A stretch of 64,000 bases of DNA, from the NCBI GenBank assembly GCA_963716175.1, contig OY970296.1, positions 3,008,001 through 3,072,000 of the forward strand, written 5' to 3'. The translations under genes and the position numbers were made by a program. Positions 3,564 to 39,115 of this stretch are shown one piece after another (the stretch's first letter is position 1; every line of letters starts with the position of its first letter). The notes below the pieces were generated by a model. It had not been told where the DNA came from. It did no database searches and was given only the letters and a program-made list of their open reading frames with translations. The stretch is from an uncultured Armatimonadetes bacterium (GTDB taxonomy: Bacteria > Armatimonadota > Hebobacteria > Hebobacterales > Hebobacteraceae).

Positions 3564-6500
3564 CTACTTGCTACCGTTCGCGGAGGATCGGCTCATACGA
3601 CGCTGCTGAAGCCTTGCGCACTCCTCTTGGATGAGCGCGACTTCTGAGCGCGATAGGCCAAGGCCCTCCCGGAGGACCAGCCCATCCAGCTCGCTCCACA
3701 CGTTGGGATGAGCGCCCGGTTTCCTCAGGGCTTTGTCAAGCCGCGCCAGCTTTGCACTGATCCGGTCTACTACTCTCTGCGGGAACTTCTCCAGGTTTGG
3801 AAGGATCGCAGCTCGCGCGTCACGTGGCTCCAGCTTGAGTAGCCCGCCGCCATAGCCGCGCCCAACAAGCTCCAGGCTAAGCCCAGTGAGCGAGGAGTAG
3901 AACGACGCCAGGTAGGGCTTGACGAGGTCGCGGTGCGTCGTGAAGGACACGTGATGCAGTGTGTTGGTACTGTTGACCTTGGCTTCGTTCATGGTCATGC
4001 GGCACCGCCTGCCCGACATGTAGGTCAGAAAAGCATCAGGGGACGGCGGGTACGGCACGGAGTACCAAGGCCATCGCGTACGGCACTTGTACCTAAGGTG
4101 GACCCCCATTCGGTGTCCCTCGTCCAGGTACCTAGCGAGTTCCTCGTCAGCAGCAATGTCTGCGTCAGGCGGAACTCGCAGCAGCAGGTGCTGTGCATCC
4201 GCTTTCCGCAGTCTCGCCAGGTCCTCGCGCGAGAAGACCGCTCCTGCCACGTGGCTGGCGCTGGTGAGGACGGGCTTCAGCCACCCTCTCCTGATGCCTC
4301 TGGCCCGCGCGGCGCTGGGCGCTAGCGTGTAGAACTTAACATCGCCCGTGACGAGCCCGATGCCCACATTCGCCACACTCGCAAAGGGCAGAGCAAGCCC
4401 GCGTTCGATCAGCGACTCAAGGAGATCAAGCACATCCTGGCTGGTGAGCAGCGCCGTCCATTTCGTCGCTTGCCATCCCTGGCGCGCCTCAGGTGCGGCC
4501 GACGCGCGCTCCAGTGATCCTGCAAGGTCATCTGCCCCGCGCACCTCTGTGCGTCTCATCCCAGCCGCATCGGACGCGCTGGCCAGTAGCAGCAGCACAT
4601 CCTGCTGTTTCTCGAATACTCGGCCCTCGAAGAGCACGAACGACAGGCTTCGAAAGCGTTTCCGCAGGAATCTGCGCACAGGTTCAGCATAGTCTGCGGT
4701 TAGCAGCTCTGTCGGCAGTACCATGGCGAGGCGGCCCTGGGGGCGGAGGAAAGCCGTGGCGTGCAGCAGGTATGGCGCCCATGAACTGGCACTCGGCGAG
4801 AGTCGTGCATCCGGCCCAAGAGTGGCATTAAGGACCTTGTTCGCCGCTTCAAGCGCACGGGCGCGATCCGCTCCTTTGAACCGGTGGGCACGGACATACG
4901 GTGGGTTACCCACAACTGCATCAATACCGTGCGAAGGCCCGACGTCGCCAGGGGATACTGAGAAGAAATCGTCGCGGACCATGTGGTTGGCCGGCAGGCG
5001 CTGCCGTCCTCTCCACAGCTCCGCGAACTGGCGCCAAGCCAGTGCGTCCATCTCAACGCCGTAGACGTGCTGCCCGATGGCGTCGCGGCCAGCACCCAAC
5101 GACGACAGCCTGTCACAAGCCTCACGCAGGAACTCTCCGTCACCAGATGCCGGGTCCAGAACGGCATCTGACCGGTTCCTCACCGCCCAGGAGACCAGGA
5201 ACCTAACTATGCCGGTAGGCGTGGCGACCGCGCCGCGGATCTTCGCCGCTGCGCTTGCGAACAGACTCTCTCCGTCTGACGCCATGCTGTCGGCGGGCGA
5301 CGTGCTAGGCAGGGCAGGTATGGAGACGGTGCGAAGCCGCGGTGCCACCGATGGCGGCACAAACACGTCGGCGAACGGCTCGTAGCGGCGACTCGCCTTG
5401 TAGCTCCTCGCAATGTCGTCCAGGGAGATGGAGCCAAAGAGATCGCGGGTGGGCGGCTGGGCGAACCGGAATGACTTGCGAATGGCGGAGTGGATGATCA
5501 CAAGCGCAGGAGGGACTCCCAGGTCGCGCGCGAGAATCTCTTCCAGATACCGGCTCTGCAGTTGAGCGGACTGGTGCCGAGCAACTCTCCCGGAGGACGC
5601 GTCGCCGTTGGCAACCGAGTTCCCCTCACCATGCTGAGAGGACTCGCGTCGGGGGCGACCGCCGGACAGCCGGGCCGTCAGCGACAGGTGAACTAGCGGC
5701 GCTGATTCACTGGCGGACACGAACAGAGTGCCTGTCTCGAGTTGATTCAGGATGTGGCGGGCCGTCTCATGTCCTGCGATGCGCCGGTAGACCTGTGTGT
5801 CGGTCATGCGCAGGAACACCTTGGTCGATCCCAGCCGCAAGGTCGGATCAGACTCACTGGGACTCGATACGTCCCCGGGCCCTGGGAAGGCTAGCTCCAA
5901 CGCGCGGGTTAGCATTGCCTCCGCCGCCATTCCGCGAGGTGAGTAGATAAAGCCCTCGTATATCCTGCGCTCAAGCTCAAAGAAGTCACGGACTAGCGCT
6001 TCCGTATCCGACCCGGCATCCAGCAGAAGGTTCGGGCCGACCTTGCGGAACGCTTGGGCGAGGGCCACCGGCTCGGGGTAGGGCAGGCCAACCGACCTTG
6101 CAGTGCGGGTGACTCCCTCGAGCGCGTCGACTGACAGAGTCCCGTTCACGAGCAGGTTGAGCACTGCCACCTCGTCGCCGGGTGGCATCAAGGCGGAGTC
6201 CGCTCTACCCGCCCGCGATGGCGCTAGCGCCCCCGCCAGAAGGTCCCTCGCCATCGCGATCTGCGACGCCAGCTCCGGCTGTCCTTCCGAGCGCATGTCC
6301 CTGGAGAACTCGGAGGCCAACCTCCGGGCATCGCCTTGGTGGAACCTGCCTAGGCGCTTCCGGAGGAAGACTTCGGCACCATGCGATAGCGCCGTATGGC
6401 CTATGTCATGTAGTAGTGAAGCCAGGACTATCAGGGTAATAGATCGATCGCTTAGGGCGAGGGCCTCCGCTATGGTCCGGCTCAGTTCGGCCACCGCGAG

Positions 6501-6680
6501 CGAGTGCTCGTATCGCGAGTATGAGCGCTGCAACTTGACGACGTACTCCATCGTGCCGAGGAGCCGGATATCTTTGAGGCGCTGCAGGTACCCGCGATCC
6601 AGCACCGGAGCCAGGCCCATTGCCCGCAGCCTGTTCTCGATGGCCTGCACCGAATCGAGTGGGTGCTGCTCTTCAGCCAT
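3564..6680 (-). CDS. Fusion of an HD-domain phosphohydrolase (SAMHD1/dNTPase-like) and an N6-adenine DNA methyltransferase with C-terminal TRD
   Basis: N-terminus LQRLKDIRLLG, SRYEHSL, LLHDIGHTALSH; C-terminus VLDPASGDGEFL, GVEMD, VVGNPPY, GRGYGGGLLKLEP. Start placed at ATG 6680, overlapping the upstream stop. Confidence 0.85.
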   Translation of the reverse strand: MAEEQHPLDSVQAIENRLRAMGLAPVLDRGYLQRLKDIRLLGTMEYVVKLQRSYSRYEHSLAVAELSRTIAEALALSDRSITLIVLASLLHDIGHTALSHGAEVFLRKRLGRFHQGDARRLASEFSRDMRSEGQPELASQIAMARDLLAGALAPSRAGRADSALMPPGDEVAVLNLLVNGTLSVDALEGVTRTARSVGLPYPEPVALAQAFRKVGPNLLLDAGSDTEALVRDFFELERRIYEGFIYSPRGMAAEAMLTRALELAFPGPGDVSSPSESDPTLRLGSTKVFLRMTDTQVYRRIAGHETARHILNQLETGTLFVSASESAPLVHLSLTARLSGGRPRRESSQHGEGNSVANGDASSGRVARHQSAQLQSRYLEEILARDLGVPPALVIIHSAIRKSFRFAQPPTRDLFGSISLDDIARSYKASRRYEPFADVFVPPSVAPRLRTVSIPALPSTSPADSMASDGESLFASAAAKIRGAVATPTGIVRFLVSWAVRNRSDAVLDPASGDGEFLREACDRLSSLGAGRDAIGQHVYGVEMDALAWRQFAELWRGRQRLPANHMVRDDFFSVSPGDVGPSHGIDAVVGNPPYVRAHRFKGADRARALEAANKVLNATLGPDARLSPSASSWAPYLLHATAFLRPQGRLAMVLPTELLTADYAEPVRRFLRKRFRSLSFVLFEGRVFEKQQDVLLLLASASDAAGMRRTEVRGADDLAGSLERASAAPEARQGWQATKWTALLTSQDVLDLLESLIERGLALPFASVANVGIGLVTGDVKFYTLAPSAARARGIRRGWLKPVLTSASHVAGAVFSREDLARLRKADAQHLLLRVPPDADIAADEELARYLDEGHRMGVHLRYKCRTRWPWYSVPYPPSPDAFLTYMSGRRCRMTMNEAKVNSTNTLHHVSFTTHRDLVKPYLASFYSSLTGLSLELVGRGYGGGLLKLEPRDARAAILPNLEKFPQRVVDRISAKLARLDKALRKPGAHPNVWSELDGLVLREGLGLSRSEVALIQEECARLQQRRMSRSSANGSK

Positions 6681-7953
6681 GGGGTGCTTCTGCCTCGCCG
6701 GATGGTGAGGGGGGCATTGCTTGGCCGACCTCAATGTATGCGCGGTGCTGCCACTCGACCCACCGCGTCGGTGCCACCGGATGGAACCCGCCAGGGCGCG
6801 ATTGGTCCGGCATCTCGATCTCCACACCAGGAAACCAGTTGAAGATGCTGAACTGAAAGGAATCGGCGAGCACTCTGTCCTTTAACCTCCTGGCGAATGC
6901 GATGGTCCGCGTCACGCTACCGTCAGTGTCAAACGGGAAGCCGACTATGAACCCGGCGGAGACGCTGATACCCGCATCCCGAAGCACCGCGAGGGCGTCC
7001 TCCGCCTGGCCCAAGTCAACGCGCTTATGTATGCGCTGGAGAATTTCGGGATCGCCCGACTCCAGCCCTACATAGACTCGGTGGCAGCCTGCCCGCGCCA
7101 TCTCGCGAGCAAGGTCGGCGTTGACTGCGTCAACTCGTGCGTTGCAGAACCACGTCACACTCCGCTGCAGCCCGCGGATGCCTTCACAAAGCCGAGCAGC
7201 ATATTCCCGGTCAGCCATGAAGTCGGGATCAACGAACGATAGTTCGCGGATTCCTCGGTCGCCCGTCAAGTACTCTACCTCAATCAGAACACTCTCGGCA
7301 GACCGCACGCGTCGGCGGCTACCGCTGATCGCCGGTACGCTGCAGAAGGCGCAGCGGTACGGACATCCCCGCTGGGCCTCGATGATAGTGACGGGCGTCT
7401 GGACGCAGTCTGGACTCCAGTAGTGTGAGAAGTCCGGAACCAAGTCCCATGCTGGCATCGGCACGCGCGAGAGTTCGGCCGCCTGTCTCCTCGGGTGCAC
7501 CTGATCCCCCCTGCAGAAGACGCCCGGGATACCCGACAGGCTGCCGCCCGATGACAGCCTCTTACACAGGTCTCGCATGATCGGCTCGCCGTCACCTACT
7601 GCCGCCATATCGAACTCTGCACTCTCGAGGGCGACATCCGGCGCCGCTGTTGGGAGCGGCCCTCCCACGATCACCGCCACGCTGTGTGCAGCCTTCGCAG
7701 CCGCGGCAAAGCGCCGGACCGGTGCGACGGTCAATGTTGACAGGGTCATTCCCACCAGGTCCGGCATCCAGCCGTCGAGACCGGCCAGAACTCCGTTGTC
7801 GTCAACTCCGCGCGCATCCGCATCAACAAGTCGCATGTCAGCGATATCTCTGATGCAGGCGGCAATGTAGAGCAGACCCAAAGGAGGCAGCCGGGTCTCA
7901 CACCTGGTGAAGCCGGCCTGCACGCCCTTCGGCTGGACCAACAGCACATTCAT
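6673..7953 (-). CDS. Cobalamin-binding radical SAM protein (class B methyltransferase-like)
   Basis: B12-domain motifs PPLGLLYIAA, VGGP, GDGE; CxxxCxxC in RGCPYRCAFC; GLESG; FIVGFP. Confidence 0.9.
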   Translation of the reverse strand: MNVLLVQPKGVQAGFTRCETRLPPLGLLYIAACIRDIADMRLVDADARGVDDNGVLAGLDGWMPDLVGMTLSTLTVAPVRRFAAAAKAAHSVAVIVGGPLPTAAPDVALESAEFDMAAVGDGEPIMRDLCKRLSSGGSLSGIPGVFCRGDQVHPRRQAAELSRVPMPAWDLVPDFSHYWSPDCVQTPVTIIEAQRGCPYRCAFCSVPAISGSRRRVRSAESVLIEVEYLTGDRGIRELSFVDPDFMADREYAARLCEGIRGLQRSVTWFCNARVDAVNADLAREMARAGCHRVYVGLESGDPEILQRIHKRVDLGQAEDALAVLRDAGISVSAGFIVGFPFDTDGSVTRTIAFARRLKDRVLADSFQFSIFNWFPGVEIEMPDQSRPGGFHPVAPTRWVEWQHRAYIEVGQAMPPSPSGEAEAPHG

Positions 7954-8927
7954 GCCTTCCAGGTCCTCGCCATTATCGTGAACACAAGCGCCGCCGCGAA
8001 TATCGCACCGGGGATGTACAGCGTCTCAACGCCGCTCTTGCCTGAGAACACAGGAGTGACGTTGGAGAGGAGCCACACGGCCATGCCAATGAAAAGCCCT
8101 GACCCAAGCCACGATATCTGGAGCAAACGCCTGCGCGAAGAGCCGCGGCTCTCCTCGTACCTTTCCAGGACCCGCTTAATCTCGGCTGCGTCCGCCGGTG
8201 TGCGCGCGTTTGCGCGCAGAAAACTCATCATGTCCTCTGCCTGCCGATCGCGTTGACTCTGCACCTTCTCAGCCACTGCCTGTCGCACAGACGGGTCTTC
8301 GGCCTTCAGGCCGCTCTGACGCAGTATCCGCTGCACCTCTGAGTCGAGAGCGATCCGTGACGGCGTCATCTGTGACTCGAACAGATACCGAGAGTCATCT
8401 CGGTCCGGGTAGCCGACGGAGGCCGGTCTCGACAGCGCGACTATAATGAGCTGGCAGATGCTCATGTACGGCCGGATCGACACCGGGAAGCTGTTATGGT
8501 TCGCTAGCTGCAGCACCAGGTTACCGTCCTGTCCGGGGTTTATGAAGTCGTTAGCGAAATGCACCGACAGGCCGAGCCGGGCGAAGCTGCTACGAGCTAC
8601 GATCCGGCCTGCCACTGTCTTGGACAGTACGATACGCTCGAGGGTCGGCGCGAACAGCACCTCACCTGGCTCAAGGGTGACCTCTTCCCCGGAACTTGCT
8701 GGCGGCAGGGCTTCGAAGAGCGCTTGTGTCTGTGCCTCTGGTGCCGCCGCATCAGCCTTCCTGACGTCCTTCTTGTACCTGGTGAACCGGTTTCCGACGC
8801 GGATATCGACAGACGCGAAACGAATCTGCTTGTCCGGCTCGAATGGGTGATGCTGCGGGTCCGTGGAGATGATCTTCACATCGCCGGACGTGATGGCCGC
8901 CTTTATGTCTACGTCCGATAGGTACAT
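7950..8927 (-). CDS. dCTP deaminase (Dcd)/trimeric dUTPase-fold protein with two C-terminal transmembrane helices
   Basis: YLSD, ASVD, LEPGE, RSSFARLGL, INPG, ICQL motifs; C-terminal hydrophobic segments LLQISWLGSGLFIGMAVWLL and LYIPGAIFAAALVFTIMA. Confidence 0.85.
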   Translation of the reverse strand: MYLSDVDIKAAITSGDVKIISTDPQHHPFEPDKQIRFASVDIRVGNRFTRYKKDVRKADAAAPEAQTQALFEALPPASSGEEVTLEPGEVLFAPTLERIVLSKTVAGRIVARSSFARLGLSVHFANDFINPGQDGNLVLQLANHNSFPVSIRPYMSICQLIIVALSRPASVGYPDRDDSRYLFESQMTPSRIALDSEVQRILRQSGLKAEDPSVRQAVAEKVQSQRDRQAEDMMSFLRANARTPADAAEIKRVLERYEESRGSSRRRLLQISWLGSGLFIGMAVWLLSNVTPVFSGKSGVETLYIPGAIFAAALVFTIMARTWKA

Positions 8928-9856
8928 GTCACCCCTCCATTACGCGGCATTGTTCTCTCATTCGGCTCATCGTGAAATGTTACCTGCGGCTACGCCCTTG
9001 TGCGGCTCGCGCACGGATGGCTGGGAGAGAACACATGTGCGCAGGGGGCCTCGGCCATAGCACGGTAGAGAAACCTATACCCGTGCTTTCTCGCGGGGAA
9101 CGCGGCTCAGAGAGGCTACAGCGGCGACGGCCAATGGCCGCCGCCGCTGTCTCTTGCATCGCTCGGGCCTAGCCACCAACGCAGGCGTACGCCCCTGTTA
9201 GCTCCTCCTTCGGCACTGGGATCGAAAAGGACAGGAGCATCGGTAGCCCGTCAGGAATGTAGTCCCGTTTTCCCCGGTGTTTCTGCACCGCATACCGCGA
9301 ACATGGTCCCCCCGATTACTATCGGCTTCACGATACCGGGTTTCGGCATGTTCGAGACGTGGCGGCGGCGGCGCATCCGGACATGACCCGCGGAAAGAAG
9401 CCATAGCTGCGTTTCGTGCCTGCTGTAGCGGTTAGTCCCCCGTGGAACCGCCATAGCCTTGCCTTGACCAGCTTTCCCGGTCTATCGTGGGCAACGCCAT
9501 CTTGCTGGGGGATGAACCCACGTGGAAGGCGCTGGGACCTCGATCTGCTTGGTAATGAAGGCGGTGCTGCTCAGTGTAGGTGTCGGGCGCTTGCAGGACC
9601 GCTAGCGTTAGATCTGTGACTCCCTGGGCTGCCTCCTCTGGCTGATCAGGCGACGAGTTTGCCTGTCAAGGCCCTGTAGGGCCGGCGCGAGAGAGCAGGA
9701 GACCTGTCTGTACACGTCGAGCGTGAACGGACTGCGCTCACGAGATGACGAACCTGGTGGCCGACACACAGTTTCTGGGGAAACGGCTGTTTGTCGCGTC
9801 ATAACATTGGGTATGGCGCCAGCCCAGGGCGGGGGGGAGCGCCGAGCGCGTCTACC

Positions 9857-13702: not shown

Positions 13703-15895
13703 TCAAGAGCGCCACTGGAGGTACGAGATGATGCCGGCGGCTACTGTGGCGATGCCCATGATCCAGAACCAGATTCGGACGAATCCCAACGGGAGGGCGA
13801 GCGCTAGCCCGCATGCAAGGGCTCCGCCCACCTCATAGAGGCTCTTCGCCCATCGTGGCCAGTGAACCCACGGAAGCAGCAGGTAGCCAATGAGAATACC
13901 ACACGATATGGCTAACCATCCTGCCCATTTGGCAACGCCGAGTGTCCTGGCCAGCCTAAGCTCCGCACTCCTGGCGCGGTCCGCCTCTTTCGTTTCGCCA
14001 CTCTGCGCTTCGGTGAGCATCGTCTCTAGACTCACCTTCTCCGTTGCCAGATCTTCCTGCATTGCCTCCGCTGCCTGCCTTCGCTGGCGCTCATGGGCCA
14101 ACTCGCCTTCGAGTTCCTGTAAGTGCAGATCTCTGACTCTCGTCTGCCCCTTGAGCCGGAGGTACTCCTGCTCCGCCAGTTCCTGGGCCCGTTTCGCGGC
14201 CCATGTCTGCTGCTGCAGTAGACTCAGAGAGCGCGCAATTGCTGCGTCTACCTGGTGATCACGCGCATCTTCAGACGCAGGCGCCCGAAGGCTAGCTGCG
14301 AGGCGCTCATCAACCATCGTGAGAACGGCGGCCTGTGCGGCGACCGCCTCATCTATTCCTGCTTCGATCGCATAGCGGTCGATGCGAGCACAGACGCGTT
14401 GCGCAGCCTCCGACGGAAGGCGAGCGATCGTCCCGATGAAGGGGCAAGCAACCAACTGGGCGAAAGCCCTATCGTAGTCGGCGGTCCTGGGGAGCGCCCA
14501 TCGCGTCATCTGCATGCAGTGGTCCGGATGGATACAGAATGGGATCTCGTTGCCGTCTTCTCGCCGTCGAATCCAATCATACCGTCTGAGTTTCCCGTCA
14601 CATGTTACGAACCATGCGCGAGCTCGCGCAAAGGATGTGGTGTCCCCGCGGAGTCTGAGGATGAGCAGTCGGTGGAATGCATCGTGGGTGATGATCTCGC
14701 CGTGCACGCCCGGGTCGCGTGCCGCCAGGAGCACAGCGCCTTCCTCCTGGGGAAGCGAAGGTGTGGCCATCGCGTCATCGTGCGGGTTATCGTCGACCAT
14801 TACGCCGAGTTGAGGAAGCAGCGCGTCGACGTTCCGAGCTCTGGCTGCAAACTCATCGACGCTGACCCCCGTACGCGCGTACTCGTCATAGTAGAGGCTG
14901 ACGAAGTCTTGCTCCGATGAGGCCCTGGCGGCAAGAGCGGCGAGTGTGCGTGACGCAATAGGATGCGCCCTGATCCGCTCAATGTTCGCCCGCAGCGATG
15001 TCCGCAACTCCTTGAGCGTTCTCTGCGAGACAAGGAGCTTGCCCCCAATCTGTCTGATAACATCTGCGAGCGTCCGGATCTGGAAGAAGTGCTGGGGGCC
15101 CTGCAGGTTGAGCAGACGGTACAGGACGTTCGTGTCAAGGTAGAAGAGGGTGCCCTGGAAAACGCCCCTGACGAGAGATGAGCACTTCGGATCAATGTGA
15201 GCAGTATGTACGATGCAGGCGTTGTCGAGTAAGCGGGTCAAGTAAAGGGCACGGTCACCTTCGGCGTCCAGCCAGAATGCCGTGAGTGTCTCGCGCCGCA
15301 TGCCCATCAGGTGCTGATCCACCGGCGGCAGGGAAGAGAAGATGCCTTCGATCGTTGGTGCCAGCTTCCCTTCGCTCGGCGGCGGCCCCGCGCCTAGCAG
15401 CGCCTGGGTCTGGGCACCGTAGCGGAGTAGCACTTGCCGGTTGAACGCCTGCTGGTCAGTGAGGAGTCGAGACAGTTCCTGGTCAGTGAGCGACGGGTAC
15501 TGCTCCTGCAGGTGGATGTGCCAGGCATCCATGACACGTCCCTCGAGTCGGTCCGCTTCTTCGATTGCCTGCTCGAGAGCACGTCGGTGCTCGGGGGTCA
15601 GGTTGTACTTCGGATCTCGGCGCCCTGAGTGGCTAATGCGCCGTCCTCGCCGCTTGCTGACTGACCTCAGAACGTGGCGGATCTCTGCAGGCTCAAATCG
15701 CAGTCCGAAGTCCGCCTCGATCGCCGAAGAGATCTCGCTTGGGCTGTAGGACTCATCGCTAGGGAGGCTCCAGAGAGCCCTCTCCACGAACCCCATTGTG
15801 ATCTGGTCAGCAAGTGGTGTTCCGGGCTCGAACGCCCCGATGTGGAGAAGCCTGCGAATAGCTTCATAGCGAGCAGGTCCGCCTAAGGCTGTCAT
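13703..15895 (-). CDS. Hypothetical protein: PIN-like domain, coiled coil and C-terminal TM helices
   Basis: FYLDTNVLY, HDAFH, WFVTCD acidic motifs typical of the PIN fold; E/Q/R-rich coiled coil; 2-3 hydrophobic helices at the C-terminus. Confidence 0.6.
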   Translation of the reverse strand: MTALGGPARYEAIRRLLHIGAFEPGTPLADQITMGFVERALWSLPSDESYSPSEISSAIEADFGLRFEPAEIRHVLRSVSKRRGRRISHSGRRDPKYNLTPEHRRALEQAIEEADRLEGRVMDAWHIHLQEQYPSLTDQELSRLLTDQQAFNRQVLLRYGAQTQALLGAGPPPSEGKLAPTIEGIFSSLPPVDQHLMGMRRETLTAFWLDAEGDRALYLTRLLDNACIVHTAHIDPKCSSLVRGVFQGTLFYLDTNVLYRLLNLQGPQHFFQIRTLADVIRQIGGKLLVSQRTLKELRTSLRANIERIRAHPIASRTLAALAARASSEQDFVSLYYDEYARTGVSVDEFAARARNVDALLPQLGVMVDDNPHDDAMATPSLPQEEGAVLLAARDPGVHGEIITHDAFHRLLILRLRGDTTSFARARAWFVTCDGKLRRYDWIRRREDGNEIPFCIHPDHCMQMTRWALPRTADYDRAFAQLVACPFIGTIARLPSEAAQRVCARIDRYAIEAGIDEAVAAQAAVLTMVDERLAASLRAPASEDARDHQVDAAIARSLSLLQQQTWAAKRAQELAEQEYLRLKGQTRVRDLHLQELEGELAHERQRRQAAEAMQEDLATEKVSLETMLTEAQSGETKEADRARSAELRLARTLGVAKWAGWLAISCGILIGYLLLPWVHWPRWAKSLYEVGGALACGLALALPLGFVRIWFWIMGIATVAAGIISYLQWRS

Positions 15896-17097: not shown

Positions 17098-20000
17098 CTA
17101 CATCGGCAACTGAAACGCCCTCGCGATGTACACCGCCATCTGGTCGCGGGTGACGGGGTCGGCCGGTTTGTAGGTGCCATCCTCATACCCCTTCACCACG
17201 TTGTGGTCCACGCAGGCCTTGATCGCTACACCTGACCAGTAGCCGGCCGGCACATCCGGGAAGAGCTGCGGGGCGGTGTTGAGGGCGTCGCTGAGCGTGA
17301 CCCATCCCTTGGCGCGGGCGATGAACACCGCCATCTGGCCCCGGTCCACCACCAGCGTGGGCTGGTAGTGAGTGGCGTCATAGCCCTGCACCACACCCTG
17401 GGCCACCGCATACTCGACGTACTTGTAGGCCCACTGATCAGTGGGGACGTCATCGGGGAAGCTGGCGGTGGCCGGACCTGTGGGCACGTTGGCATCGCCC
17501 CCGGCTAGAGCGCGGCTTACGTAAACCGCCATCTGGTCGCGACTGACCGGCTCGGTGGGCTTGTAAGTGCCATCGGAGTAGCCCTGCACGATGCCGGCGT
17601 CAACCAGCGAAGCAATAGCCGATTCGGCCCAGAAACCGGCTGGGACGTCAGTGAACTGGGGTGGGAGCACAAGGTCAACTGTGGTGGTCTGCCCCGCGGT
17701 AATCACCACACCGGTCTGAGTGGCAGCGCCGTGCCCATGCGCAGTCGCCTTGACGGTCGTCCCCGTGGTCTCGGCGACGTCAATGGTGAAGGTCCCATTG
17801 GCATCGGCCGCGGTGTATAGATTCCCGCCGATCCAGATATCGGCGTAAGGAATGGGACCGCCGGTGGTAGCATCGGTCACAGCACCACTGACGGTGCCGA
17901 AGCTGCGTATGTGAGGCTCCCACATGCGGATAGCCCCCACGGAATCGCTTCCCGCCTGACTGGCAGTGACTACGAAACGCCCGTTGGCGCTCATGTCAGG
18001 AGGATCCCCACCTATTCCCCCTTCGACGAAGGCGTTATAGAGCACGACGCTCCCGATGCCCGTACGGTCTCGGACCACGATGTACCCGGTCCCGCCTCCA
18101 TACGTCCCTGGCACTACGTAGTAAAACGCGACCATCTGGCCATCCGCGCTCACCGCGACCGGGTAGGACGGATGGTACAGGCTGTATGGGGTTGCCGGCG
18201 CGTCGCCGGGCATCAGGCTGGCGAACTCCGTGGTCCCGGCCACCCGGTCACGCAGGTAGACATTACCATGACCGATGGGGCTGAAGTACGTATTGTAGAT
18301 GGGGACCAGATCATTGGCGTCAGAGCAAAAGGCCACGAAACGACCATCATGGCTCATCATCGCCACGCCGGACCAGTTGTCAGGCGCGACGATTTGCTGC
18401 GAACCGTCCTCGGCGAGGCTTACGCGTTCAGTTGTCGCTGTGGTCAGGTCGTGGAGGAAGGTGTCGATGATCCCGTTGGTGTCCCCTGCTACCAGGTTCG
18501 TCGCGGCCGATGAGAAGGCTACATAGCGGCCGTCGGCACTGATGCAGGGATCCGTTGATGGGCCGTCGGCCTGGGCCCCGTTGCTGGCCACGCTGACGCG
18601 CACTGTGCGTTTGGTCAGGAGATTGTGCACGAACACATCCGTCTGCCCGTTGGTGTCGTCCGGGACCAGGTTCGTGGCATCAGAACTGAAGCAGACATAG
18701 CGGCCGTTGGCGCTGATCGTGCCGTGGGCAATGCTATCCGCCGGCGTGCCGTCACTGGCAGCGCTGGCCAAGGTTAGGCTGGACGTCTCGCGGTCGTACA
18801 CGTAGGTCTGCCAGACTCCGGGCGGCACGTCAGGAGGCAGGACCACCGGTGAGTACGCCACATACCGCCCGTTAGCGCTGACTGAGGCGGCGGAGCCGCC
18901 GATGGCCTGAGAACCGTCCTCCGTCTTGCTGATCAGTTCGATCTGCCCAGTCGATCGGTCCAGGAGGAAGACGTTTCCCGTCTGCCCCGGTGGCAGCGGG
19001 ACCAAGTCTGTGGCGCTGGAGGCGAAGACAACATAGCGCCCGTCCGGGGTGATCACGGGGCTGTAGGAGTTCCCGTTCGGGAAAGTATTCCCGCTCATGG
19101 AGTGCACGATGATCTCCGGGTGCACGGCCCAATCCGATATAGTCCAGGGCTGCAGCGGGAAGTCAATCCCTGAGGTCGTCTGCTGATCCACGACCTCGAC
19201 GTTCGAGACTTCACCAGCGTCATAGCCTCGCATCACGGCGGTGATGGTCCAGGTCCCCGGCCAGGCGGCAAGGGCATACGTGCCGTCAGCGGCACTTATG
19301 GTCTCACCCTGGCCGCCATAGACGGTAACGCCCCCGAGCGGCTGAAGGGTGACGGCATCTCGGACGGTTCCCGTGACCGTGCCCCTGGCGATCTGGAGTG
19401 CGAAATCCACTGTCGTGGCTGCGCCCGACACCACCACGACGCTGTCCATCGTCAATGATCCGAAACCGGCGCCGCTGGCAGTCACGGAGTAGGTGCCTTC
19501 CGGCACGACCGGCAGCAGATAGCCTCCGCTGCCATCTGTGATCGCCCTCAGGTAGCTATAGGTGACTGACCCGCCAATGACGGGGTTGCCGCTGCCGGCG
19601 TCAGTGACTGTCCCTTGGATCAAGCCGATGCCCTGCGCGACATCGCGCACCTCAATCTGCTGGTTGGCGGCCACCCCGTTCTCGGTGACGATGTGATGGT
19701 TGGGGAAGACCACTTGCACCGCCACCGTAGTGGCGGTGCCGAGGCCGAACTGGCCTATGGGCTCATTCTGGCCCATGAACCCCGACCCCCCGTCAACCAT
19801 GCGCGTGAGGGTACGACCCGGGGGGAAGGAGAGGTCGTTGTCCAGATTCACCAGGATGCGGGCACCCAGCGCGTCCCGCACCGGACTGCCGTCGGTGGCG
19901 TCGCCGGTGGCGCTGGTGAGGGCGCGCACCCGCAGCCAGTGCCCATCGCCAGGCGAACCGAGGTTGTGGTAGAGCAGGGATGTGTCGCTGTCGGAGGCGC

Positions 20001-21117
20001 CGAGGAGATCCATGCTGCCGTCCCGGTCGAAGTCGGCCCAGCAGATAGCCGTGTAGTTCCGACCCGCGCTCACTCCCTCTGCGAGGCTCAGGTCCGTGAA
20101 CGTGCCGTCTCCATTGTTGTGAAAGAGGAAGGGCGCGATGCTGCCGCTGGCGGGACCGACGATGAGATCCAGAAATCCGTCGTTGTCGTAGTCGGCCCAG
20201 GCGGTGCCGCGCGTGGGCATGCTGACTGCTGACATCCCTACGAGGTCCAGCACAGAATCGAAGTGGCCGCCGGTGTTCATGCAGAAGACCGATTCCTCCG
20301 TCCGTCCATTGCCGATGAAAACGTCCAGCCAGCCGTCATTGTTGTAGTCTCCCCAGGCGACGCCGGTGCTGTCGTGTCCGGGGAAGCTGCCCGAGGAGAA
20401 CGTACCGTCTCCCTTGTTCGTGAAGAGATAGGCGTTCGTCTGCTTGGCTGGATCGAAGATGCTTCTCTGCCGCGTCATCGCCACATCCAAGAAGCCGTCA
20501 TTGTTGTAGTCGGCCCAAGCGCACCCCATGCCGTCCATGGGACTGCCCATCCCCGCCGCAGCCGTGACGTTCGAGAATGTGCCATCGCGGTTGTTGTGAT
20601 ACAGGACAGAGGGGCCGTAGTCGTTGTAGGAAACGAAGAGGTCGAGCCAGTTGTCCCCGTCGAAGTCGCCCCAGCTCGCCCCTCGACCGAAGAAGGCGCC
20701 GGTCATCGGTGCGAAACCAGCGGTTGCTCCCACATCCGTGAAATGGTCGCCGTCATTCCGGTACAGGTGCGGAGTGTGGGAGCCGCCGATGATGATGAGA
20801 TCCAGCCTGCCATCGTTGTTGTAGTCACCCCAGGCGCATCCCCATTCGTCATATGAGACCGTGTCAAGTCCCTTGGCAGCGGTGACGTCCGTGAAGGTCC
20901 CATTGCCGTTATTGTGCAGCAGCACACATGGGCCGGTCCCGCCGATATAGAGGTCAGGGTAGCCGTCGTTGTCATAGTCGCCCCAGGCCGCGCCCATGGC
21001 CGCCGGAATGTTCAGAGTGGTACCTAGGTCGGCAAAACGACCGGCGGACGCGCGACCCGAAAGGAGAAGACCGCCCAACAGCAGCACAACGGAGAGCCCC
21101 AGAGTCCGAGATGCCAT
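17098..21117 (-). CDS. Secreted FG-GAP/ASPIC-UnbV protein with carboxypeptidase-regulatory-like repeats, TolB-like propeller and SLH domains
   Basis: Signal peptide; repeated WGDYDNDG; GTVTDA..G.P repeats; ISADGRYVAF repeats; C-terminal GYxDGTYKP..VTRDQMA SLH motifs. Confidence 0.85.
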   Translation of the reverse strand: MASRTLGLSVVLLLGGLLLSGRASAGRFADLGTTLNIPAAMGAAWGDYDNDGYPDLYIGGTGPCVLLHNNGNGTFTDVTAAKGLDTVSYDEWGCAWGDYNNDGRLDLIIIGGSHTPHLYRNDGDHFTDVGATAGFAPMTGAFFGRGASWGDFDGDNWLDLFVSYNDYGPSVLYHNNRDGTFSNVTAAAGMGSPMDGMGCAWADYNNDGFLDVAMTRQRSIFDPAKQTNAYLFTNKGDGTFSSGSFPGHDSTGVAWGDYNNDGWLDVFIGNGRTEESVFCMNTGGHFDSVLDLVGMSAVSMPTRGTAWADYDNDGFLDLIVGPASGSIAPFLFHNNGDGTFTDLSLAEGVSAGRNYTAICWADFDRDGSMDLLGASDSDTSLLYHNLGSPGDGHWLRVRALTSATGDATDGSPVRDALGARILVNLDNDLSFPPGRTLTRMVDGGSGFMGQNEPIGQFGLGTATTVAVQVVFPNHHIVTENGVAANQQIEVRDVAQGIGLIQGTVTDAGSGNPVIGGSVTYSYLRAITDGSGGYLLPVVPEGTYSVTASGAGFGSLTMDSVVVVSGAATTVDFALQIARGTVTGTVRDAVTLQPLGGVTVYGGQGETISAADGTYALAAWPGTWTITAVMRGYDAGEVSNVEVVDQQTTSGIDFPLQPWTISDWAVHPEIIVHSMSGNTFPNGNSYSPVITPDGRYVVFASSATDLVPLPPGQTGNVFLLDRSTGQIELISKTEDGSQAIGGSAASVSANGRYVAYSPVVLPPDVPPGVWQTYVYDRETSSLTLASAASDGTPADSIAHGTISANGRYVCFSSDATNLVPDDTNGQTDVFVHNLLTKRTVRVSVASNGAQADGPSTDPCISADGRYVAFSSAATNLVAGDTNGIIDTFLHDLTTATTERVSLAEDGSQQIVAPDNWSGVAMMSHDGRFVAFCSDANDLVPIYNTYFSPIGHGNVYLRDRVAGTTEFASLMPGDAPATPYSLYHPSYPVAVSADGQMVAFYYVVPGTYGGGTGYIVVRDRTGIGSVVLYNAFVEGGIGGDPPDMSANGRFVVTASQAGSDSVGAIRMWEPHIRSFGTVSGAVTDATTGGPIPYADIWIGGNLYTAADANGTFTIDVAETTGTTVKATAHGHGAATQTGVVITAGQTTTVDLVLPPQFTDVPAGFWAESAIASLVDAGIVQGYSDGTYKPTEPVSRDQMAVYVSRALAGGDANVPTGPATASFPDDVPTDQWAYKYVEYAVAQGVVQGYDATHYQPTLVVDRGQMAVFIARAKGWVTLSDALNTAPQLFPDVPAGYWSGVAIKACVDHNVVKGYEDGTYKPADPVTRDQMAVYIARAFQLPM

Positions 21118-23901: not shown

Positions 23902-23956
23902 CGCACACCCCCCTGATGCAGCAATACCGGACCCCCTCGAAGCGGCCCGTGGCGAC

Positions 23957-23985
23957 AGTATAGCGCGGCGCCAGGTGTAGGACAA
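23957..23985 (-). promoter_or_regulatory. Sigma70-type promoter of the second SLH gene
   Basis: TTGTCC-17bp-TATACT on the minus strand. Confidence 0.5.
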
Positions 23986-26055: not shown

Positions 26056-26216
26056 GCACGCCTCCTCTGGTGGATGGTTGCGGCATGACATGAATCACTT
26101 CAAGCGGCGAACAAGTCCAGGCCTTTGTGCAAGTATTCTGTGGGGTGGGCCCTAGTGCGGGTATTTCGTATCCCCTCGATTTCGGGCCAGGATGGCTCTA
26201 GGAGCCACGAGAAGAG

Positions 26217-26610
26217 TGGAGTGGGCCGATAAGCCGAGTTTTGGCGCGACATTCGCCCGATACGTCAGGTTATGTCGCGAGCGTCCATCTATCTAGGGCT
26301 GCGATCGCTCGCAGCCTCAAGCGGCCAACCCGGGGCTGATGCGGCGTCGGGCCAACGCTGGTCCCCAACCGGGGACTCGCCCCCTATTTGGCCTTGCTCC
26401 GGGCGGGGTTTGGCCAGCCGGTGTGTCTCCACGCCGCTGGTGCGCTCTTACCGCACCATTTCACCCTTGCCCAGCTCGCGCCGGGCGGTATGTTTCTGTG
26501 CCACTTTCCGTCGGGTCGCCCCGCCTGGGCGTTACCCAGCGCCCTGCCCTGTGGAGCTCGGACTTTCCTCGTTCCGCCATCGGCGAACCGCGGACGCTTG
26601 GCCCACTCCA
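26217..26610 (-). ncRNA. rnpB: RNase P RNA (bacterial type A-like)
   Basis: GAGGAAAGTCCGAGCTCC near the 5' end, GGAAAGTGGCACAGAAA, GGTAAGAGCGCACC, AAAACTCGGCTTAT near the 3' end; P1 TGGAGTGGGCC/GGCCCACTCCA. Confidence 0.95.
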
Positions 26611-28302: not shown

Positions 28303-28509
28303 GAAGCACCTACCGGCGATTATGGAACTCAAGTGCATCTGGGGAGACTGGGAGGTTCTCCACTGCCGGGCTCGGCGCCGTCTGACACCCGGAATGTGCT
28401 CCTGTGTGACAGTGGGGGCAGGCACTTGGCCGACGGCAGCGAATCTGCGCGGCAGCGCAATGAAGCTGGGTTTCGTGCGGTTGCGGGTCTCCGGCTGGGA
28501 GGGCCTCCG

Positions 28510-38959: not shown

Positions 38960-39042
38960 GCTCGCACCCCGACTCTCATCCGCGTTTCCCCCGCTGCCTC
39001 CTGCTCGGCGCCAGCGAGTAGGGGAGGAGGCACAGCGGAGAG

Positions 39043-39115
39043 TAGGCCGTCTGGGATTCGAACCCAGGACACCCGGATTAAAAGTCCGGTGCTCTACCGA
39101 CTGAGCTAACGGCCC
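39043..39115 (-). tRNA. tRNA-Lys(UUU), CCA not encoded
   Basis: GGGCCGTTAGCTCAGTCGGTAGAGCACCGGACTTTTAATCCGG...GGTTCGAATCCC..ACGGCCTA cloverleaf. Confidence 0.97.

What the first reader, a model, noticed from the sequence alone, without database searches (positions are those of the whole stretch)
3564..8927. Candidate new nucleotide-based defence or DNA-modification operon: Dcd-2TM + B12 radical SAM + HD-MTase
Seen: three minus-strand genes are translationally coupled (ATGA overlap at 7950-7953; 8-bp overlap at 6673-6680) and lie between transposase relics and a Type IIG R-M gene. Established: Dcd-fold and HD proteins act on dNTPs, class B radical SAM enzymes methylate unactivated atoms, and 2TM domains are common abortive-infection effectors (CBASS, Pycsar, retrons). 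I know of no described system with this combination. Inference: the radical SAM and HD domains make or destroy an unusual (methylated) nucleotide that the Dcd-2TM protein senses, giving a suicide backup tied to the DNA methyltransferase. An alternative is a new DNA base-hypermodification pathway.
Basis: partly seen in the sequence, partly recalled or inferred. Interest (0 to 1): 0.9.

Follow-up and report, generated by a model that had tools for sequence, protein, structure and literature searches.

The report
Rare three-gene nucleotide-centred candidate defence module
Three overlapping genes (a catalytically dead dCTP-deaminase look-alike anchored in the membrane, a B12-type radical SAM enzyme, and a SAMHD1-like dNTPase fused to a DNA adenine methyltransferase) recur together in a few unrelated microbes and match no described system, so they are a good candidate for a new kind of anti-virus defence, though no function has been shown.

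Summary
Three minus-strand genes overlap (ATGA at 7950-7953; 8 bases at 6673-6680). They encode a Dcd-fold protein with two C-terminal hydrophobic helices, a B12-domain radical SAM enzyme, and an HD + N6-adenine DNA methyltransferase fusion. IS relics and a type IIG R-M gene flank them.

New here:
- The radical SAM gene is followed directly by the HD-MTase gene in 5 of 5 loci that hold an orthologue.
- A Dcd-2TM gene is also present in an archaeal-labelled MAG contig (L001), but downstream instead of upstream. Equal contig lengths in the protein database suggest three more triads.
- The module is very rare: 13 to 15 relatives of each protein among 5.8 billion. It is sporadic: no orthologue in 40 relatives, 1 of 401 genomes in L001's class.
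- The Dcd domain lacks the catalytic Glu (Gln here, Ala in the L001 type), so it is not a deaminase and is more likely a nucleotide binder.
- The HD domain belongs to the SAMHD1/EF1143 dNTP-triphosphohydrolase family.
- The radical SAM enzyme's closest solved relatives include non-methylating enzymes (AprD4, OxsB).

No PADLOC model and none of 10 literature searches describes this combination. A defence role is inferred, not shown.

The parts
7950..8927 (-). Gene 1: pseudo-dCTP-deaminase with helical stalk and two C-terminal transmembrane helices (Dcd-2TM, P0001, 325 aa)
   Evidence: Pfam DCD 6.3e-34. The AF2 model's top Foldseek hits are E. coli Dcd (TM-score 0.8-0.9 normalised by target length). 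Gln140 stands where E. coli Dcd has Glu138.
8418..8927 (-). Dcd/dUTPase-fold domain of gene 1 (residues 1-170)
   Evidence: pLDDT is mostly 88-96, with a dip to 62-64 at residues 51-70. The 'RSSFARLG' motif is kept. IDPG has become INPG (Asn130) and Glu has become Gln140.
7965..8126 (-). Two hydrophobic helices of gene 1 (residues 268-321)
   Evidence: Kyte-Doolittle 19-mers of at least 1.6 at 268-287 and 300-321. Model helices at 247-294 and 301-324.
6673..7953 (-). Gene 2: radical SAM enzyme with N-terminal B12-binding domain (P0002, 426 aa)
   Evidence: Pfam Radical_SAM and B12-binding, both above their cut-offs. The CxxxCxxC motif is invariant in 11 of 11 orthologues. PDB profile hits: AprD4 8e-36, 9ccb 4.4e-25, OxsB 1e-17.
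3564..6680 (-). Gene 3: HD-MTase fusion (P0125, 1038 aa, ATG start at 6680)
   Evidence: Four Pfam domains. Thirteen homologues share the same architecture (A4).
5661..6680 (-). SAMHD1/EF1143-type HD dNTP-triphosphohydrolase-like domain of gene 3 (about residues 1-340)
   Evidence: Profile A4 against PDB: 2hek 1.7e-26 over profile positions 21-330, 9mr6 9.6e-24, 2q14 1.4e-19, EF1143 (2o6i) 2.9e-14, SAMHD1 5.4e-12. The motifs 'RYEH' and 'HDIGHTALSH' align with SAMHD1 'RFEH' and 'HDLGHGPFSH'.
3567..5261 (-). N6-adenine DNA methyltransferase with Eco57I-type C-terminal (target recognition) domain of gene 3 (residues 474-1038)
   Evidence: PADLOC MTase_II PDLC03267 6.5e-102, residues 477-1031 against model positions 8-538 of 539. 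PDB: M.BseCI 3.6e-18, CamA 2.1e-16, M.TaqI. NPPY is invariant.
8928..9856 (.). 929-base spacer upstream of gene 1, presumably holding the operon's promoter or regulatory region
   Evidence: Only short ORFs of 45-68 aa lie within it, and larger ORFs merely reach in from either end; one (9198-9404) was scanned against Pfam without a match, the others were not. No Rfam match. No sigma-70-like site in the scan.

Best explanation
This is a rare, horizontally spread three-gene conflict (most likely anti-phage) module built around deoxynucleotides.

Shown:
(a) Gene 3 is a complete type II-like N6-adenine DNA methyltransferase with a target-recognition domain. A complete SAMHD1/EF1143-type dNTP-triphosphohydrolase domain is fused to its N-terminus, the position where type IIG enzymes carry their nuclease (that layout is recalled).
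(b) A B12-domain radical SAM enzyme is always encoded directly upstream of it.
(c) Gene 1 has the dCTP-deaminase fold but has lost the catalytic Glu. The window type keeps the Arg-Ser-Ser...Arg motif. The protein ends in two membrane helices.

Inferred working:
1. The methyltransferase marks the cell's own DNA.
2. When the fusion protein meets unmethylated foreign DNA, or when methylation fails, its HD domain and the radical SAM enzyme change the deoxynucleotide pool. They would deplete it and/or convert a (deoxy)nucleotide into an abnormal one.
3. The Dcd-like head reads the pyrimidine-nucleotide state. Solved Dcd and dUTPase enzymes are trimers (recalled), so the head is presumably trimeric.
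4. The head then switches its membrane helices to collapse membrane integrity, arresting or killing the infected cell.

My odds are about 0.6 that the module is a defence or conflict system at all, and about 0.25 for this particular chain of events.
For: Conserved linkage:
- HD-MTase lies immediately downstream of the radical SAM orthologue on the same strand in 5 of 5 loci: window, L001, L022, L023, L035.
- A Dcd+2TM gene is upstream in the window and downstream in L001. Its fold and two long terminal helices are confirmed by a model.
- Equal 'longest contig' lengths link all three proteins on contigs of 29379, 11073 and 162332 bases. Two of the three are linked on contigs of 7464 and 6868 bases.
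- An AU test does not reject one origin for the two operon-linked Dcd clades. The constrained tree has a log-likelihood 17.35 higher, p-AU 0.837.

Accessory, mobile character:
- No orthologue in 40 relatives.
- 1 of 401 genomes in L001's class.
- A full-length Dcd-2TM in 1 of 401 genomes of the window's phylum.
- Record titles put relatives in a Bathyarchaeia MAG, while the window is bacterial (bacterial RNase P RNA).

Context:
- IS relics and a type IIG R-M gene are adjacent in the window.
- A Gp49/HTH pair lies beside the module in L001. Reading it as HigBA-like is my own.

Pseudo-enzyme:
- Glu138 of E. coli Dcd aligns with Gln140. The PDB entry titles 'E138A' and 'E138D' fix the residue number.
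- The column holds Gln in 4 of 4 window-type and Ala in 11 of 11 L001-type proteins.
- Of 120 long Dcd-like relatives, 104 lack the Glu and 79 have C-terminal hydrophobic segments. The Dcd-2TM protein is therefore a recurrent module that also occurs without these partners.

HD domain: SAMHD1-family match with catalytic motifs intact.

Precedents in print:
- dGTPase (a SAMHD1 homologue), dCTP deaminase and viperin defences (review PMC13276650, passages).
- The Ophion defence system of radical SAM + phosphatase + PRTase (bioRxiv 10.1101/2025.09.30.679545, passages).
- The B12 radical SAM enzyme OxsB working with the HD phosphohydrolase OxsA (PMC9204698, passage).
Against: - There is no experimental datum of any kind.
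- Only two complete neighbourhoods could be read (window, L001). The other triads rest on equal contig lengths, which are a fingerprint and not a reading of the DNA.
- L022 carries the radical SAM + HD-MTase pair with no Dcd gene in the 324 bases upstream or 1.7 kb downstream.
- Seven more distant HD-MTases (P0132-P0138) share no contig length with any listed radical SAM or Dcd hit. The fusion protein may therefore work alone.
- The L001-type Dcd proteins have also lost the 'RSS..R' motif ('KVASHAMG'). This weakens a dNTP-sensor reading for that clade.
- The substrate and chemistry of the radical SAM enzyme are unknown. Its best NCBIfam score is 129 bits, against family cut-offs of 251 to 775 among the ten best-scoring families.
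- No PADLOC defence model matches genes 1 or 2, apart from a partial match of the radical SAM core to candidate family PDC-M51A (1.7e-11).
- No relative was found in viral contigs, plasmids or phages. Carriage on mobile elements is therefore not shown.
Confidence: 0.45

Rival explanations
1. DNA hypermodification or restriction-modification-like system. The methyltransferase domain finds its site and makes m6A. The B12 radical SAM enzyme adds a further, chemically hard modification to DNA, for example C-methylation or extension of the methyl group. The HD domain acts on nucleic acid as the restriction arm, in the place where type IIG enzymes carry a nuclease. The Dcd-2TM protein is an accessory or a toxin.
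For: - The C-terminal 555 residues are a full-length match to a type II MTase model, and a target-recognition domain is present.
- With an N-terminal catalytic domain followed by the MTase and the recognition domain, the architecture mirrors type IIG enzymes. There are weak matches to BpuSI and RM.BsaXI.
- The radical SAM and HD-MTase genes overlap or abut in all 5 loci.
- Several class B radical SAM families are C- or P-methyltransferases (NCBIfam names).
- The search listing and abstract of PMC8989533 hold 'radical SAM' 13 times in a paper on phage thymidine hypermodification. The paper itself was not read.
Against: - The HD domain is of the SAMHD1/EF1143 dNTPase family over about 310 positions, not a known HD nuclease family. 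The Pfam HD-CE match is only 0.0034 and below its cut-off.
- This reading gives the membrane pseudo-Dcd no role, yet that protein is kept in both module types.
- No radical SAM enzyme is known to me to modify DNA bases after m6A (recalled, not searched specifically).
Confidence: 0.2
2. Maker of an antiviral nucleotide analogue. As with viperin, or with OxsB and OxsA, the radical SAM enzyme and the HD phosphohydrolase convert a (deoxy)nucleotide into a chain terminator or polymerase poison. The Dcd-like membrane protein binds the product for immunity, export or feedback. The methyltransferase part only regulates or targets.
For: - OxsB (5ul2) is the third-best solved relative and aligns across both the B12 and radical SAM domains (profile 39-344, 1e-17).
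- OxsB needs the HD phosphohydrolase OxsA (PMC9204698, passage).
- The best solved relative, AprD4, belongs to a family NCBIfam names 'radical SAM diol-dehydratase'. That dehydration is also what viperin does is my recollection.
- Radical SAM plus phosphoesterase defence systems exist (Ophion; viperin).
Against: - OxsA is not among the 65 PDB matches of the HD-MTase profile at E up to 1, of which the best 60 were shown.
- The HD domain here is a large SAMHD1-type domain covalently tied to a DNA MTase, which this model does not need.
- There is no viperin-family hit in PADLOC.
- No kinase or other tailoring gene lies in the operon.
Confidence: 0.15
3. Selfish addiction module. The membrane pseudo-Dcd is a toxin held in check by the activity of the other two proteins, much as a methyltransferase protects against its restriction partner. 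The unit would persist by post-segregational killing rather than by defending the host.
For: - Sporadic, patchy distribution with IS relics beside it.
- Translational coupling of all three genes.
- A toxin-antitoxin-like pair as neighbour in L001.
Against: - The pair exists without a Dcd gene on L022.
- Long Dcd-2TM relatives are far more numerous than the pair, so they are not generally controlled by it.
- Addiction and defence are not exclusive.
Confidence: 0.1
4. Ordinary metabolism or chance adjacency. The genes would be a housekeeping dCTP deaminase, a cofactor or lipid radical SAM enzyme and an orphan methyltransferase that happen to lie together.
For: - NCBIfam would name gene 1 'dCTP deaminase' (131.8 bits against a cut-off of 92.8).
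- JGI names relatives 'deoxycytidine triphosphate deaminase' and 'anaerobic Mg-protoporphyrin IX monomethyl ester cyclase'.
Against: - The catalytic Glu is absent.
- Membrane helices are present.
- The genes overlap.
- The same set recurs in an unrelated genome in another order.
- No orthologue occurs in 14 of 14 genomes of the same family.
Confidence: 0.03

Closest known systems
Nucleotide-depletion defence: bacterial dGTPase (SAMHD1 homologue) and defence dCTP deaminase (Tal et al. 2022, as summarised in review PMC13276650; passages seen)
   Same: An HD domain of the SAMHD1/dNTP-triphosphohydrolase family with intact catalytic motifs. A deoxypyrimidine-nucleotide-binding fold sits in the same operon.
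   Different: - The HD domain is fused to a DNA methyltransferase.
- It misses all NCBIfam dGTPase cut-offs (at most 30 bits). It gives only a partial PADLOC dGTPase match (2.7e-08 over 55 residues).
- The 'deaminase' is of the Dcd/dUTPase fold, lacks its catalytic Glu and is membrane-bound.
- The defence dCTP deaminase has no match here (0 PADLOC families for P0001).
Radical SAM defence systems: prokaryotic viperins (review PMC13276650) and Ophion (rSAM + PHP phosphatase + PRTase; bioRxiv 10.1101/2025.09.30.679545, passages)
   Same: A radical SAM enzyme is encoded with a phosphohydrolase in a small operon of accessory genes. The likely target is nucleotides or nucleic acids.
   Different: - This radical SAM enzyme carries a B12-binding domain and is not a viperin (no such PADLOC hit).
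- The partners are an HD-MTase and a Dcd-2TM protein, not PHP and PRTase.
OxsB/OxsA of oxetanocin-A biosynthesis (PMC9204698, passage; PDB 5ul2)
   Same: A B12-domain radical SAM enzyme works with an HD phosphohydrolase on deoxyadenosine phosphates. OxsB aligns over both domains (1e-17).
   Different: - Only distant similarity.
- OxsA is absent from the HD matches.
- No MTase and no membrane protein occur in that pathway.
- The context here is R-M and IS elements, not a plasmid-borne antibiotic cluster (the last point is recalled).
Type IIG restriction-modification enzymes (Eco57I, BpuSI, MmeI type)
   Same: One polypeptide carries an N-terminal catalytic domain, a gamma-class N6-adenine MTase with NPPY, and a C-terminal recognition domain (Pfam Eco57I, M_Eco57I_C; BpuSI 3s1s 7e-4).
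   Different: The N-terminal domain is a SAMHD1-type HD domain instead of a PD-(D/E)XK nuclease. No nuclease family was found.
Ligand-gated transmembrane effectors of CBASS, Pycsar and type III CRISPR (e.g. Cam1, CARF-TM; search listing and abstracts only)
   Same: A soluble nucleotide-binding head is joined to a short C-terminal membrane segment. The proposed outcome is membrane disruption.
   Different: - The head is a dUTPase/Dcd fold, not SAVED, CARF or a cNMP-binding domain.
- No cyclase or other signal synthase of those systems is present in the operon.
Signalling dUTPases of staphylococcal phages (PDB titles 3zf3, 3zf4 'Phage dUTPases control transfer of virulence genes by a proto-oncogenic G protein-like mechanism')
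   Same: This is a precedent for a dUTPase-fold protein used as a nucleotide-controlled switch rather than only as an enzyme.
   Different: - Those proteins are soluble, active dUTPases that bind a repressor.
- They are only weak structural matches (TM-score about 0.3-0.55).

Membership tests
dCTP deaminase (Dcd, TIGR02274) | Dcd/dUTPase beta-barrel fold and family-level sequence score | tested here: met
   Pfam DCD 6.3e-34. TIGR02274 131.8 bits against a cut-off of 92.8. Foldseek top hits are E. coli Dcd, E 5e-17.
dCTP deaminase (Dcd, TIGR02274) | Catalytic glutamate (Glu138 in E. coli; its catalytic role is recalled, its position is fixed by the PDB variant titles) | tested here: not met
   Gln140 in P0001 ('VLQLAN' against 'VLEFYN'). 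Gln in 4 of 4 window-type and Ala in 11 of 11 L001-type proteins. The 'IDPG' Asp is also Asn130 in the window type.
Class B (cobalamin-dependent) radical SAM enzymes | CxxxCxxC [4Fe-4S] motif in a radical SAM core | tested here: met
   C197, C201 and C204 are invariant in 11 of 11 orthologues. Pfam Radical_SAM 91.7 bits against a cut-off of 29.5.
Class B (cobalamin-dependent) radical SAM enzymes | N-terminal B12-binding (Rossmann-like) domain | tested here: met
   Pfam B12-binding 52.4 bits against a cut-off of 32.1, residues 19-128. OxsB, TsrM and TokK are among the PDB matches.
Class B (cobalamin-dependent) radical SAM enzymes | Cobalamin actually bound and used; methyl transfer | not testable with these tools
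   The best solved relative, AprD4, belongs to a family NCBIfam names 'diol-dehydratase'. OxsB is a ring-contraction enzyme.
Any named NCBIfam radical SAM family (HpnJ, AprD4, ApyD, BchE, PhpK ...) | Score above the family's curated cut-off | tested here: not met
   The best score is 129 bits (HpnJ, cut-off 577.6). The ten best-scoring families have cut-offs of 251 to 750, and all 25 listed matches are below their cut-off.
SAMHD1/EF1143-type dNTP triphosphohydrolases | HD-domain metal and catalytic residues (R..H, HD..H....H, later D) | tested here: met
   R56, H59, H91, D92, H95, H100, H114 and D185 are invariant in 14 of 14 and align with the SAMHD1 motifs. The numbering of the SAMHD1 catalytic residues is recalled.
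SAMHD1/EF1143-type dNTP triphosphohydrolases | Homology across the whole catalytic domain | tested here: met
   Profile A4: 2hek 1.7e-26 (positions 21-330), 2q14 1.4e-19 (23-354), EF1143 2.9e-14 (24-289). HD_assoc_2 is present in relative P0135.
SAMHD1/EF1143-type dNTP triphosphohydrolases | Membership of curated dGTPase families; dNTPase activity | tested here: not met
   NCBIfam dGTPase models give at most 30.2 bits against cut-offs of 152-511. Activity is not testable here.
Type II / type IIG restriction-modification | Gamma-class N6-adenine MTase motifs and a target-recognition domain | tested here: met
   PADLOC MTase_II 6.5e-102, full length. NPPY and the DPxxGxG motif are invariant. M_Eco57I_C 43.2 bits against a cut-off of 27.
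Type II / type IIG restriction-modification | A recognised endonuclease domain or a partner nuclease gene | tested here: not met
   No nuclease family appears in Pfam, NCBIfam or PADLOC for any of the three proteins. The adjacent type IIG gene is a separate complete enzyme that is not conserved with the unit.
CBASS / Pycsar / other cyclic-nucleotide signalling defence | A nucleotide cyclase (CD-NTase, PycC) encoded with the TM effector | tested here: not met
   No such domain occurs in the operon or in L001.
Prokaryotic viperin (pVip) | Viperin-family radical SAM protein | tested here: not met
   PADLOC gives only a partial match of the radical SAM core to candidate family PDC-M51A (1.7e-11, residues 191-356) and no pVip model.
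OxsB/OxsA pair | OxsB-like B12 radical SAM enzyme together with an OxsA-like small HD phosphohydrolase | tested here: inconclusive
   OxsB scores 1e-17 but ranks behind AprD4 and 9ccb. OxsA is not among the HD matches listed.

The most novel reading that the evidence does not exclude
The B12-domain radical SAM enzyme and the SAMHD1-like HD-methyltransferase together create a chemical species not yet known in biology. It would be either a modified deoxynucleotide used as an alarm signal or a new C-alkylated DNA base. The membrane pseudo-Dcd would be its dedicated receptor. That would define a new class of immune signalling in which a dead dCTP deaminase is the sensor domain. Long Dcd-like proteins without the catalytic Glu fill at least 104 sequence clusters (50% identity), and 79 of the 120 long ones have hydrophobic tails. 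This receptor type would then be used well beyond this operon.
Probability: 0.15. Interest if true: 0.9.

Novelty: new variant of a known kind. Interest (0 to 1): 0.68.

Why it matters
If the module defends against viruses, it would join three ideas that are so far known separately:
- marking self DNA by methylation;
- starving or poisoning viral DNA synthesis through the nucleotide pool (the SAMHD1 or dGTPase logic, and the viperin logic);
- killing the cell through a ligand-gated membrane protein.

It would also give a first function to a sizeable family of 'dCTP deaminases' that cannot deaminate and that automatic annotation currently mislabels. NCBIfam scores gene 1 above the dCTP deaminase cut-off.

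For enzymology, it offers a B12-domain radical SAM enzyme whose substrate is probably a nucleotide or DNA. OxsB is the only example of that kind I know of (recalled).

The module's rarity limits its ecological weight but not its mechanistic interest.

Tried and rejected
1. Physical contact between the radical SAM enzyme and the HD domain (residues 1-460) was tried with complex prediction. The result was no verdict (score 0.00, mark 0.32). It counts neither for nor against binding.

2. Expression: the look-up of sequencing runs listed no RNA holder. It listed only two DNA runs, with small shares of the words (0.14, 0.12), from one study. Nothing was laid and no conclusion was drawn.

3. Independent recruitment of two Dcd lineages. 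The free tree put the L001-type clade on a very long branch, apart from the window clade (65 rows). The rows were 4 window-type, 9 of the 12 L001-type, P0154-P0157, P0160, and every third of P0162-P0307. Only the first 170-205 residues of each were used. The AU test did not reject one clade (constrained tree better by 17.35 lnL, p-AU 0.837). I dropped that claim.

4. Island borders. There is no direct repeat of the RNase P RNA 3' end or other att-like repeat around the region, and only one tRNA, far away at 39042-39115. The borders are left undefined.

5. Riboswitch or other RNA upstream of the operon: no Rfam match. The promoter and terminator scans were uninformative.

6. Mobile-element carriage:
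- No relative of the radical SAM enzyme or HD-MTase in viral contigs.
- Plasmids gave one weak partial HD match (24% of the query covered), only ordinary dcd genes, and radical SAM matches of 27-32% identity in the 8 rows shown.
- In phages, 0 of 71 matching records cover at least 80% of P0001.

7. ESM Atlas look-up of the C-terminal 141 residues of P0001: no usable hit.

8. The listing of cluster members returned no accession numbers, so gene order on the 29379-, 162332- and 11073-base contigs could not be read.

9. Literature. All ten full-text searches found no description of this gene combination or of membrane-bound Dcd-like proteins. The catalytic role of Glu138 could not be confirmed from an open paper and is recalled.

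Full report
WHAT IS THERE

Three minus-strand ORFs lie at 7950-8927, 6673-7953 and 3564-6827. The third gene most likely starts at the ATG at 6680, giving 1038 aa, because all 13 homologues begin at the aligned position.

The stop of gene 1 overlaps the start of gene 2 in ATGA. Genes 2 and 3 overlap by the 8 bases ATGGCTGA.

A 929-base spacer lies upstream of gene 1. Only short ORFs lie within it, and the one that was scanned (9198-9404) gave no family match. It has no Rfam match and no consensus promoter.

Neighbours:
- To the left are relics of an IS110-family transposase and of an rve-type integrase core.
- To the right is a complete MmeI-like type IIG enzyme (PADLOC 1.8e-86).
- Next comes a 730-aa ORF with no family match.

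G+C is 0.60-0.64 across the region, like its surroundings.

GENE 1 (P0001, 325 aa)

Residues 1-170 are a Dcd/dUTPase fold:
- Pfam DCD 6.3e-34.
- NCBIfam dCTP deaminase 131.8 bits, above the cut-off of 92.8.
- The AlphaFold2 model has mean pLDDT 78.9, mostly 88-96 in the core with a dip at residues 51-70. Its best Foldseek matches are E. coli Dcd.

The phmmer alignment to E. coli Dcd puts Gln140 ('VLQLAN') opposite Glu138 ('VLEFYN'). The PDB holds E138A and E138D variants at exactly that column, and E145A/E145Q variants of the M. jannaschii enzyme. That this Glu is the catalytic residue is my recollection, and an open paper could not be found.

The Asp of the 'IDPG' motif is Asn130 in P0001, while 'RSSFARLG' is kept.

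The rest of the protein is helical and ends in two hydrophobic helices.

GENE 2 (P0002, 426 aa)

- It has a B12-binding domain and a radical SAM core, both above the Pfam cut-offs.
- CxxxCxxC is invariant in 11 of 11 orthologues.
- It reaches no NCBIfam family cut-off. The best score is HpnJ at 129 bits against 577.6.
- Among solved structures, a profile of the orthologues finds AprD4 (8e-36, core only), an unnamed protein 9ccb (4.4e-25), OxsB (1e-17, both domains), TsrM and TokK.
- Methylation is therefore only one of several possible chemistries.

GENE 3 (P0125, 1038 aa)

- Residues 477-1031 match a PADLOC type II methyltransferase model from end to end (6.5e-102).
- They carry Pfam N6_Mtase, Eco57I and M_Eco57I_C, and NPPY is invariant.
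- The closest solved enzymes are M.BseCI, CamA and M.TaqI.
- The N-terminal part of about 340 residues is homologous to SAMHD1/EF1143-type dNTP triphosphohydrolases across the whole catalytic domain. The hits are 2hek 1.7e-26, 9mr6 9.6e-24, 2q14 1.4e-19, EF1143 2.9e-14 and SAMHD1 5.4e-12.
- The signature motifs align with SAMHD1 and are invariant in 14 of 14 family members.
- A relative also scores for Pfam HD_assoc_2.
- The order of catalytic domain, MTase and recognition domain is that of type IIG enzymes (recalled), with an HD domain in place of the nuclease.

IS THE SET CONSERVED?

Numbers of relatives among 5.8 billion clustered proteins:
- The radical SAM enzyme has 13 orthologue-level relatives (52-58% identity). 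The next hit has 35%.
- The HD-MTase has 13 relatives, all with the same four domains.
- The Dcd-2TM search returned 24 proteins: the window's own, 3 of the window type (48-63% identity, about 326 aa), 12 of a second type (about 277 aa, 18-23% identity), and more distant ones.

Loci with readable DNA:
- DNA could be fetched for four loci with a radical SAM orthologue.
- In all five, counting the window, the HD-MTase gene follows the radical SAM gene directly on the same strand.
- L001 is a 9.4-kb contig whose record title names a Bathyarchaeia MAG. There the HD-MTase gene is followed by a 277-aa gene with Pfam DCD (1.2e-08) and two strongly hydrophobic C-terminal segments.
- The model of that protein (mean pLDDT 69) has a dUTPase/Dcd-fold head (Foldseek 7e-12, TM-score 0.84 normalised by target) and two long terminal helices.
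- The same three parts therefore occur in another order in a distant genome.
- L022 (6.3 kb) has the pair but no Dcd gene on the contig.
- L023 and L035 are too short to tell. The L035 copy is broken over several frames.

Contig-length fingerprints. For contigs I could not fetch, the 'longest contig' lengths coincide across the three searches:
- 29379, 11073 and 162332 bases for all three proteins;
- 7464 bases for the radical SAM and Dcd proteins;
- 6868 bases for the HD-MTase and Dcd proteins.
This is a fingerprint, not proof of adjacency.

One origin or two? A tree of the Dcd heads could not place the long-branched second type. The AU test did not reject a single clade of both operon-linked types (p-AU 0.837). 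One origin followed by rearrangement is compatible, and I make no claim of independent recruitment.

DISTRIBUTION

- No orthologue of the radical SAM gene was found in 40 relatives of the window's genome, including 14 of 14 of the same family. The single other hit has 34% identity.
- In 401 genomes of L001's class, only L001's own genome has an orthologue (796.7 bits; next best 277.7).
- In 401 genomes of the window's phylum, only the window's genome has a full-length Dcd-2TM. The other 37 matches are ordinary Dcd, or end by profile position 237.
- Nothing was found in viral contigs, plasmids or phage records.
- The module is thus accessory, rare and patchily spread. If the MAG label is right, it spans both prokaryotic domains.

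A WIDER FAMILY OF DEAD Dcd PROTEINS

- An exhaustive profile search found 599 cluster representatives at E up to 1e-30.
- I analysed 153 rows: the 150 listed hits plus P0001, P0124 and P0160.
- Of these, 120 are long (260 aa or more).
- Of the 120 long ones, 104 lack Glu at the catalytic column. Gln accounts for 77.
- Of the 120 long ones, 79 have a hydrophobic 19-mer after residue 170, by my simple hydropathy scan.
- These proteins far outnumber the HD-MTase family, so the Dcd-2TM protein is a module with other partners or none.

HOW IT MOST LIKELY WORKS

Shown: the domain identities, the missing catalytic residue, the intact HD, radical SAM and MTase motifs, the gene coupling, the recurrence and the patchy distribution.

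Inferred: the methyltransferase marks self DNA. The HD domain and the radical SAM enzyme alter the deoxynucleotide pool when foreign or unmethylated DNA is met. The pseudo-Dcd head reads the pyrimidine-nucleotide state and drives its membrane helices to arrest the cell. The head is presumed trimeric, like solved Dcd and dUTPase enzymes (recalled).

Published precedents for the separate pieces:
- dGTPase, dCTP deaminase and viperin defences (review PMC13276650, passages).
- The radical SAM system Ophion (bioRxiv 10.1101/2025.09.30.679545, passages).
- OxsB with the HD enzyme OxsA (PMC9204698, passage).

Points against:
- L022 has no Dcd gene.
- Seven distant HD-MTases show no sign of the partners.
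- The second Dcd type has also lost the 'RSS..R' motif.
- The chemistry of the radical SAM enzyme is unknown.
- There are only two full neighbourhoods.

The rivals are DNA hypermodification with an HD restriction arm, an analogue-making pathway, an addiction module, and plain metabolism. Their odds are given in the report sections.

COMPARISON WITH WHAT IS KNOWN

- PADLOC has no model for either Dcd-2TM type.
- For the radical SAM enzyme it gives only a partial core match to candidate family PDC-M51A.
- An automatic annotation would call the locus an orphan type II methyltransferase next to a type IIG enzyme, plus a 'dCTP deaminase' and a 'radical SAM protein'.
- Ten full-text searches found no description (calls listed under Tried and rejected). 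Supplements were closed and may hold candidate lists that I could not see.
- I file it as a new variant of known kinds of system (nucleotide-pool and membrane-effector defences), not as a member of any named one.

VERDICT

This is a real, conserved, rare and undescribed gene module whose function remains inferred. Interest is 0.68.

Noticed in passing
protein ids P0162-P0307; no window coordinates: There is a large family of long (260-400 aa) Dcd-like proteins. In 104 of the 120 examined the catalytic Glu is replaced (mostly by Gln), and 79 of the 120 have C-terminal hydrophobic segments. They are probably annotated as dCTP deaminases. Their gene neighbourhoods could not be read.
   Followed up: partly
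proteins P0132-P0138: A second, more distant group of HD-MTase fusions (about 975 aa, 29-36% identity in the HD part; some with Pfam HD_assoc_2) shares no contig length with any listed radical SAM or Dcd hit. The fusion may therefore also exist on its own.
   Followed up: partly
window 24170-26609: Two tandem, about 72% identical tyrosine-recombinase gene copies (repeats D4 and D5, spacing 935 bases) lie directly beside a bacterial class A RNase P RNA gene (26214-26609, minus strand, 282.9 bits). No att-like direct repeat was found.
   Followed up: partly
window 17098-21117 and 21295-23985 (minus strand): Two paralogous giant surface proteins carry FG-GAP, CarboxypepD_reg and three SLH domains. 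Their 3' 300 bases are 89% identical (repeat D3).
   Followed up: no
window 13703-15895 (minus strand): A 730-aa ORF lies between the type IIG gene and the surface-protein genes. It has no Pfam, NCBIfam or PADLOC match except a sub-threshold PIN hit (E 0.0057).
   Followed up: partly
window 28333-31809 (plus strand): An 1158-aa Ser/Thr protein kinase with beta-propeller repeats. Its kinase domain matches the PADLOC PD-T4-6 and mad6 models strongly (2.8e-82). This may only reflect the generic kinase fold.
   Followed up: no
L035 828-2468; L023 329-1255: In L035 the radical SAM and HD-MTase genes are split over several reading frames, either a pseudogene or a poor assembly. In L023 the radical SAM ORF begins at the position of residue 109, so it lacks most of the B12-binding domain.
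   Followed up: no
L001 926-1990 (minus) and 8492-9217 (plus): The archaeal-labelled module is flanked by a ClpP-like SDH-type serine protease gene and by a Gp49 (DUF891) + HTH_3 gene pair of toxin-antitoxin type.
   Followed up: no
G000:C1:835472-835720 (outside the window): The genome holds a second DCD-family match (50.8 bits, profile positions 69-150 only). Whether it is the housekeeping Dcd or a dUTPase was not examined.
   Followed up: no
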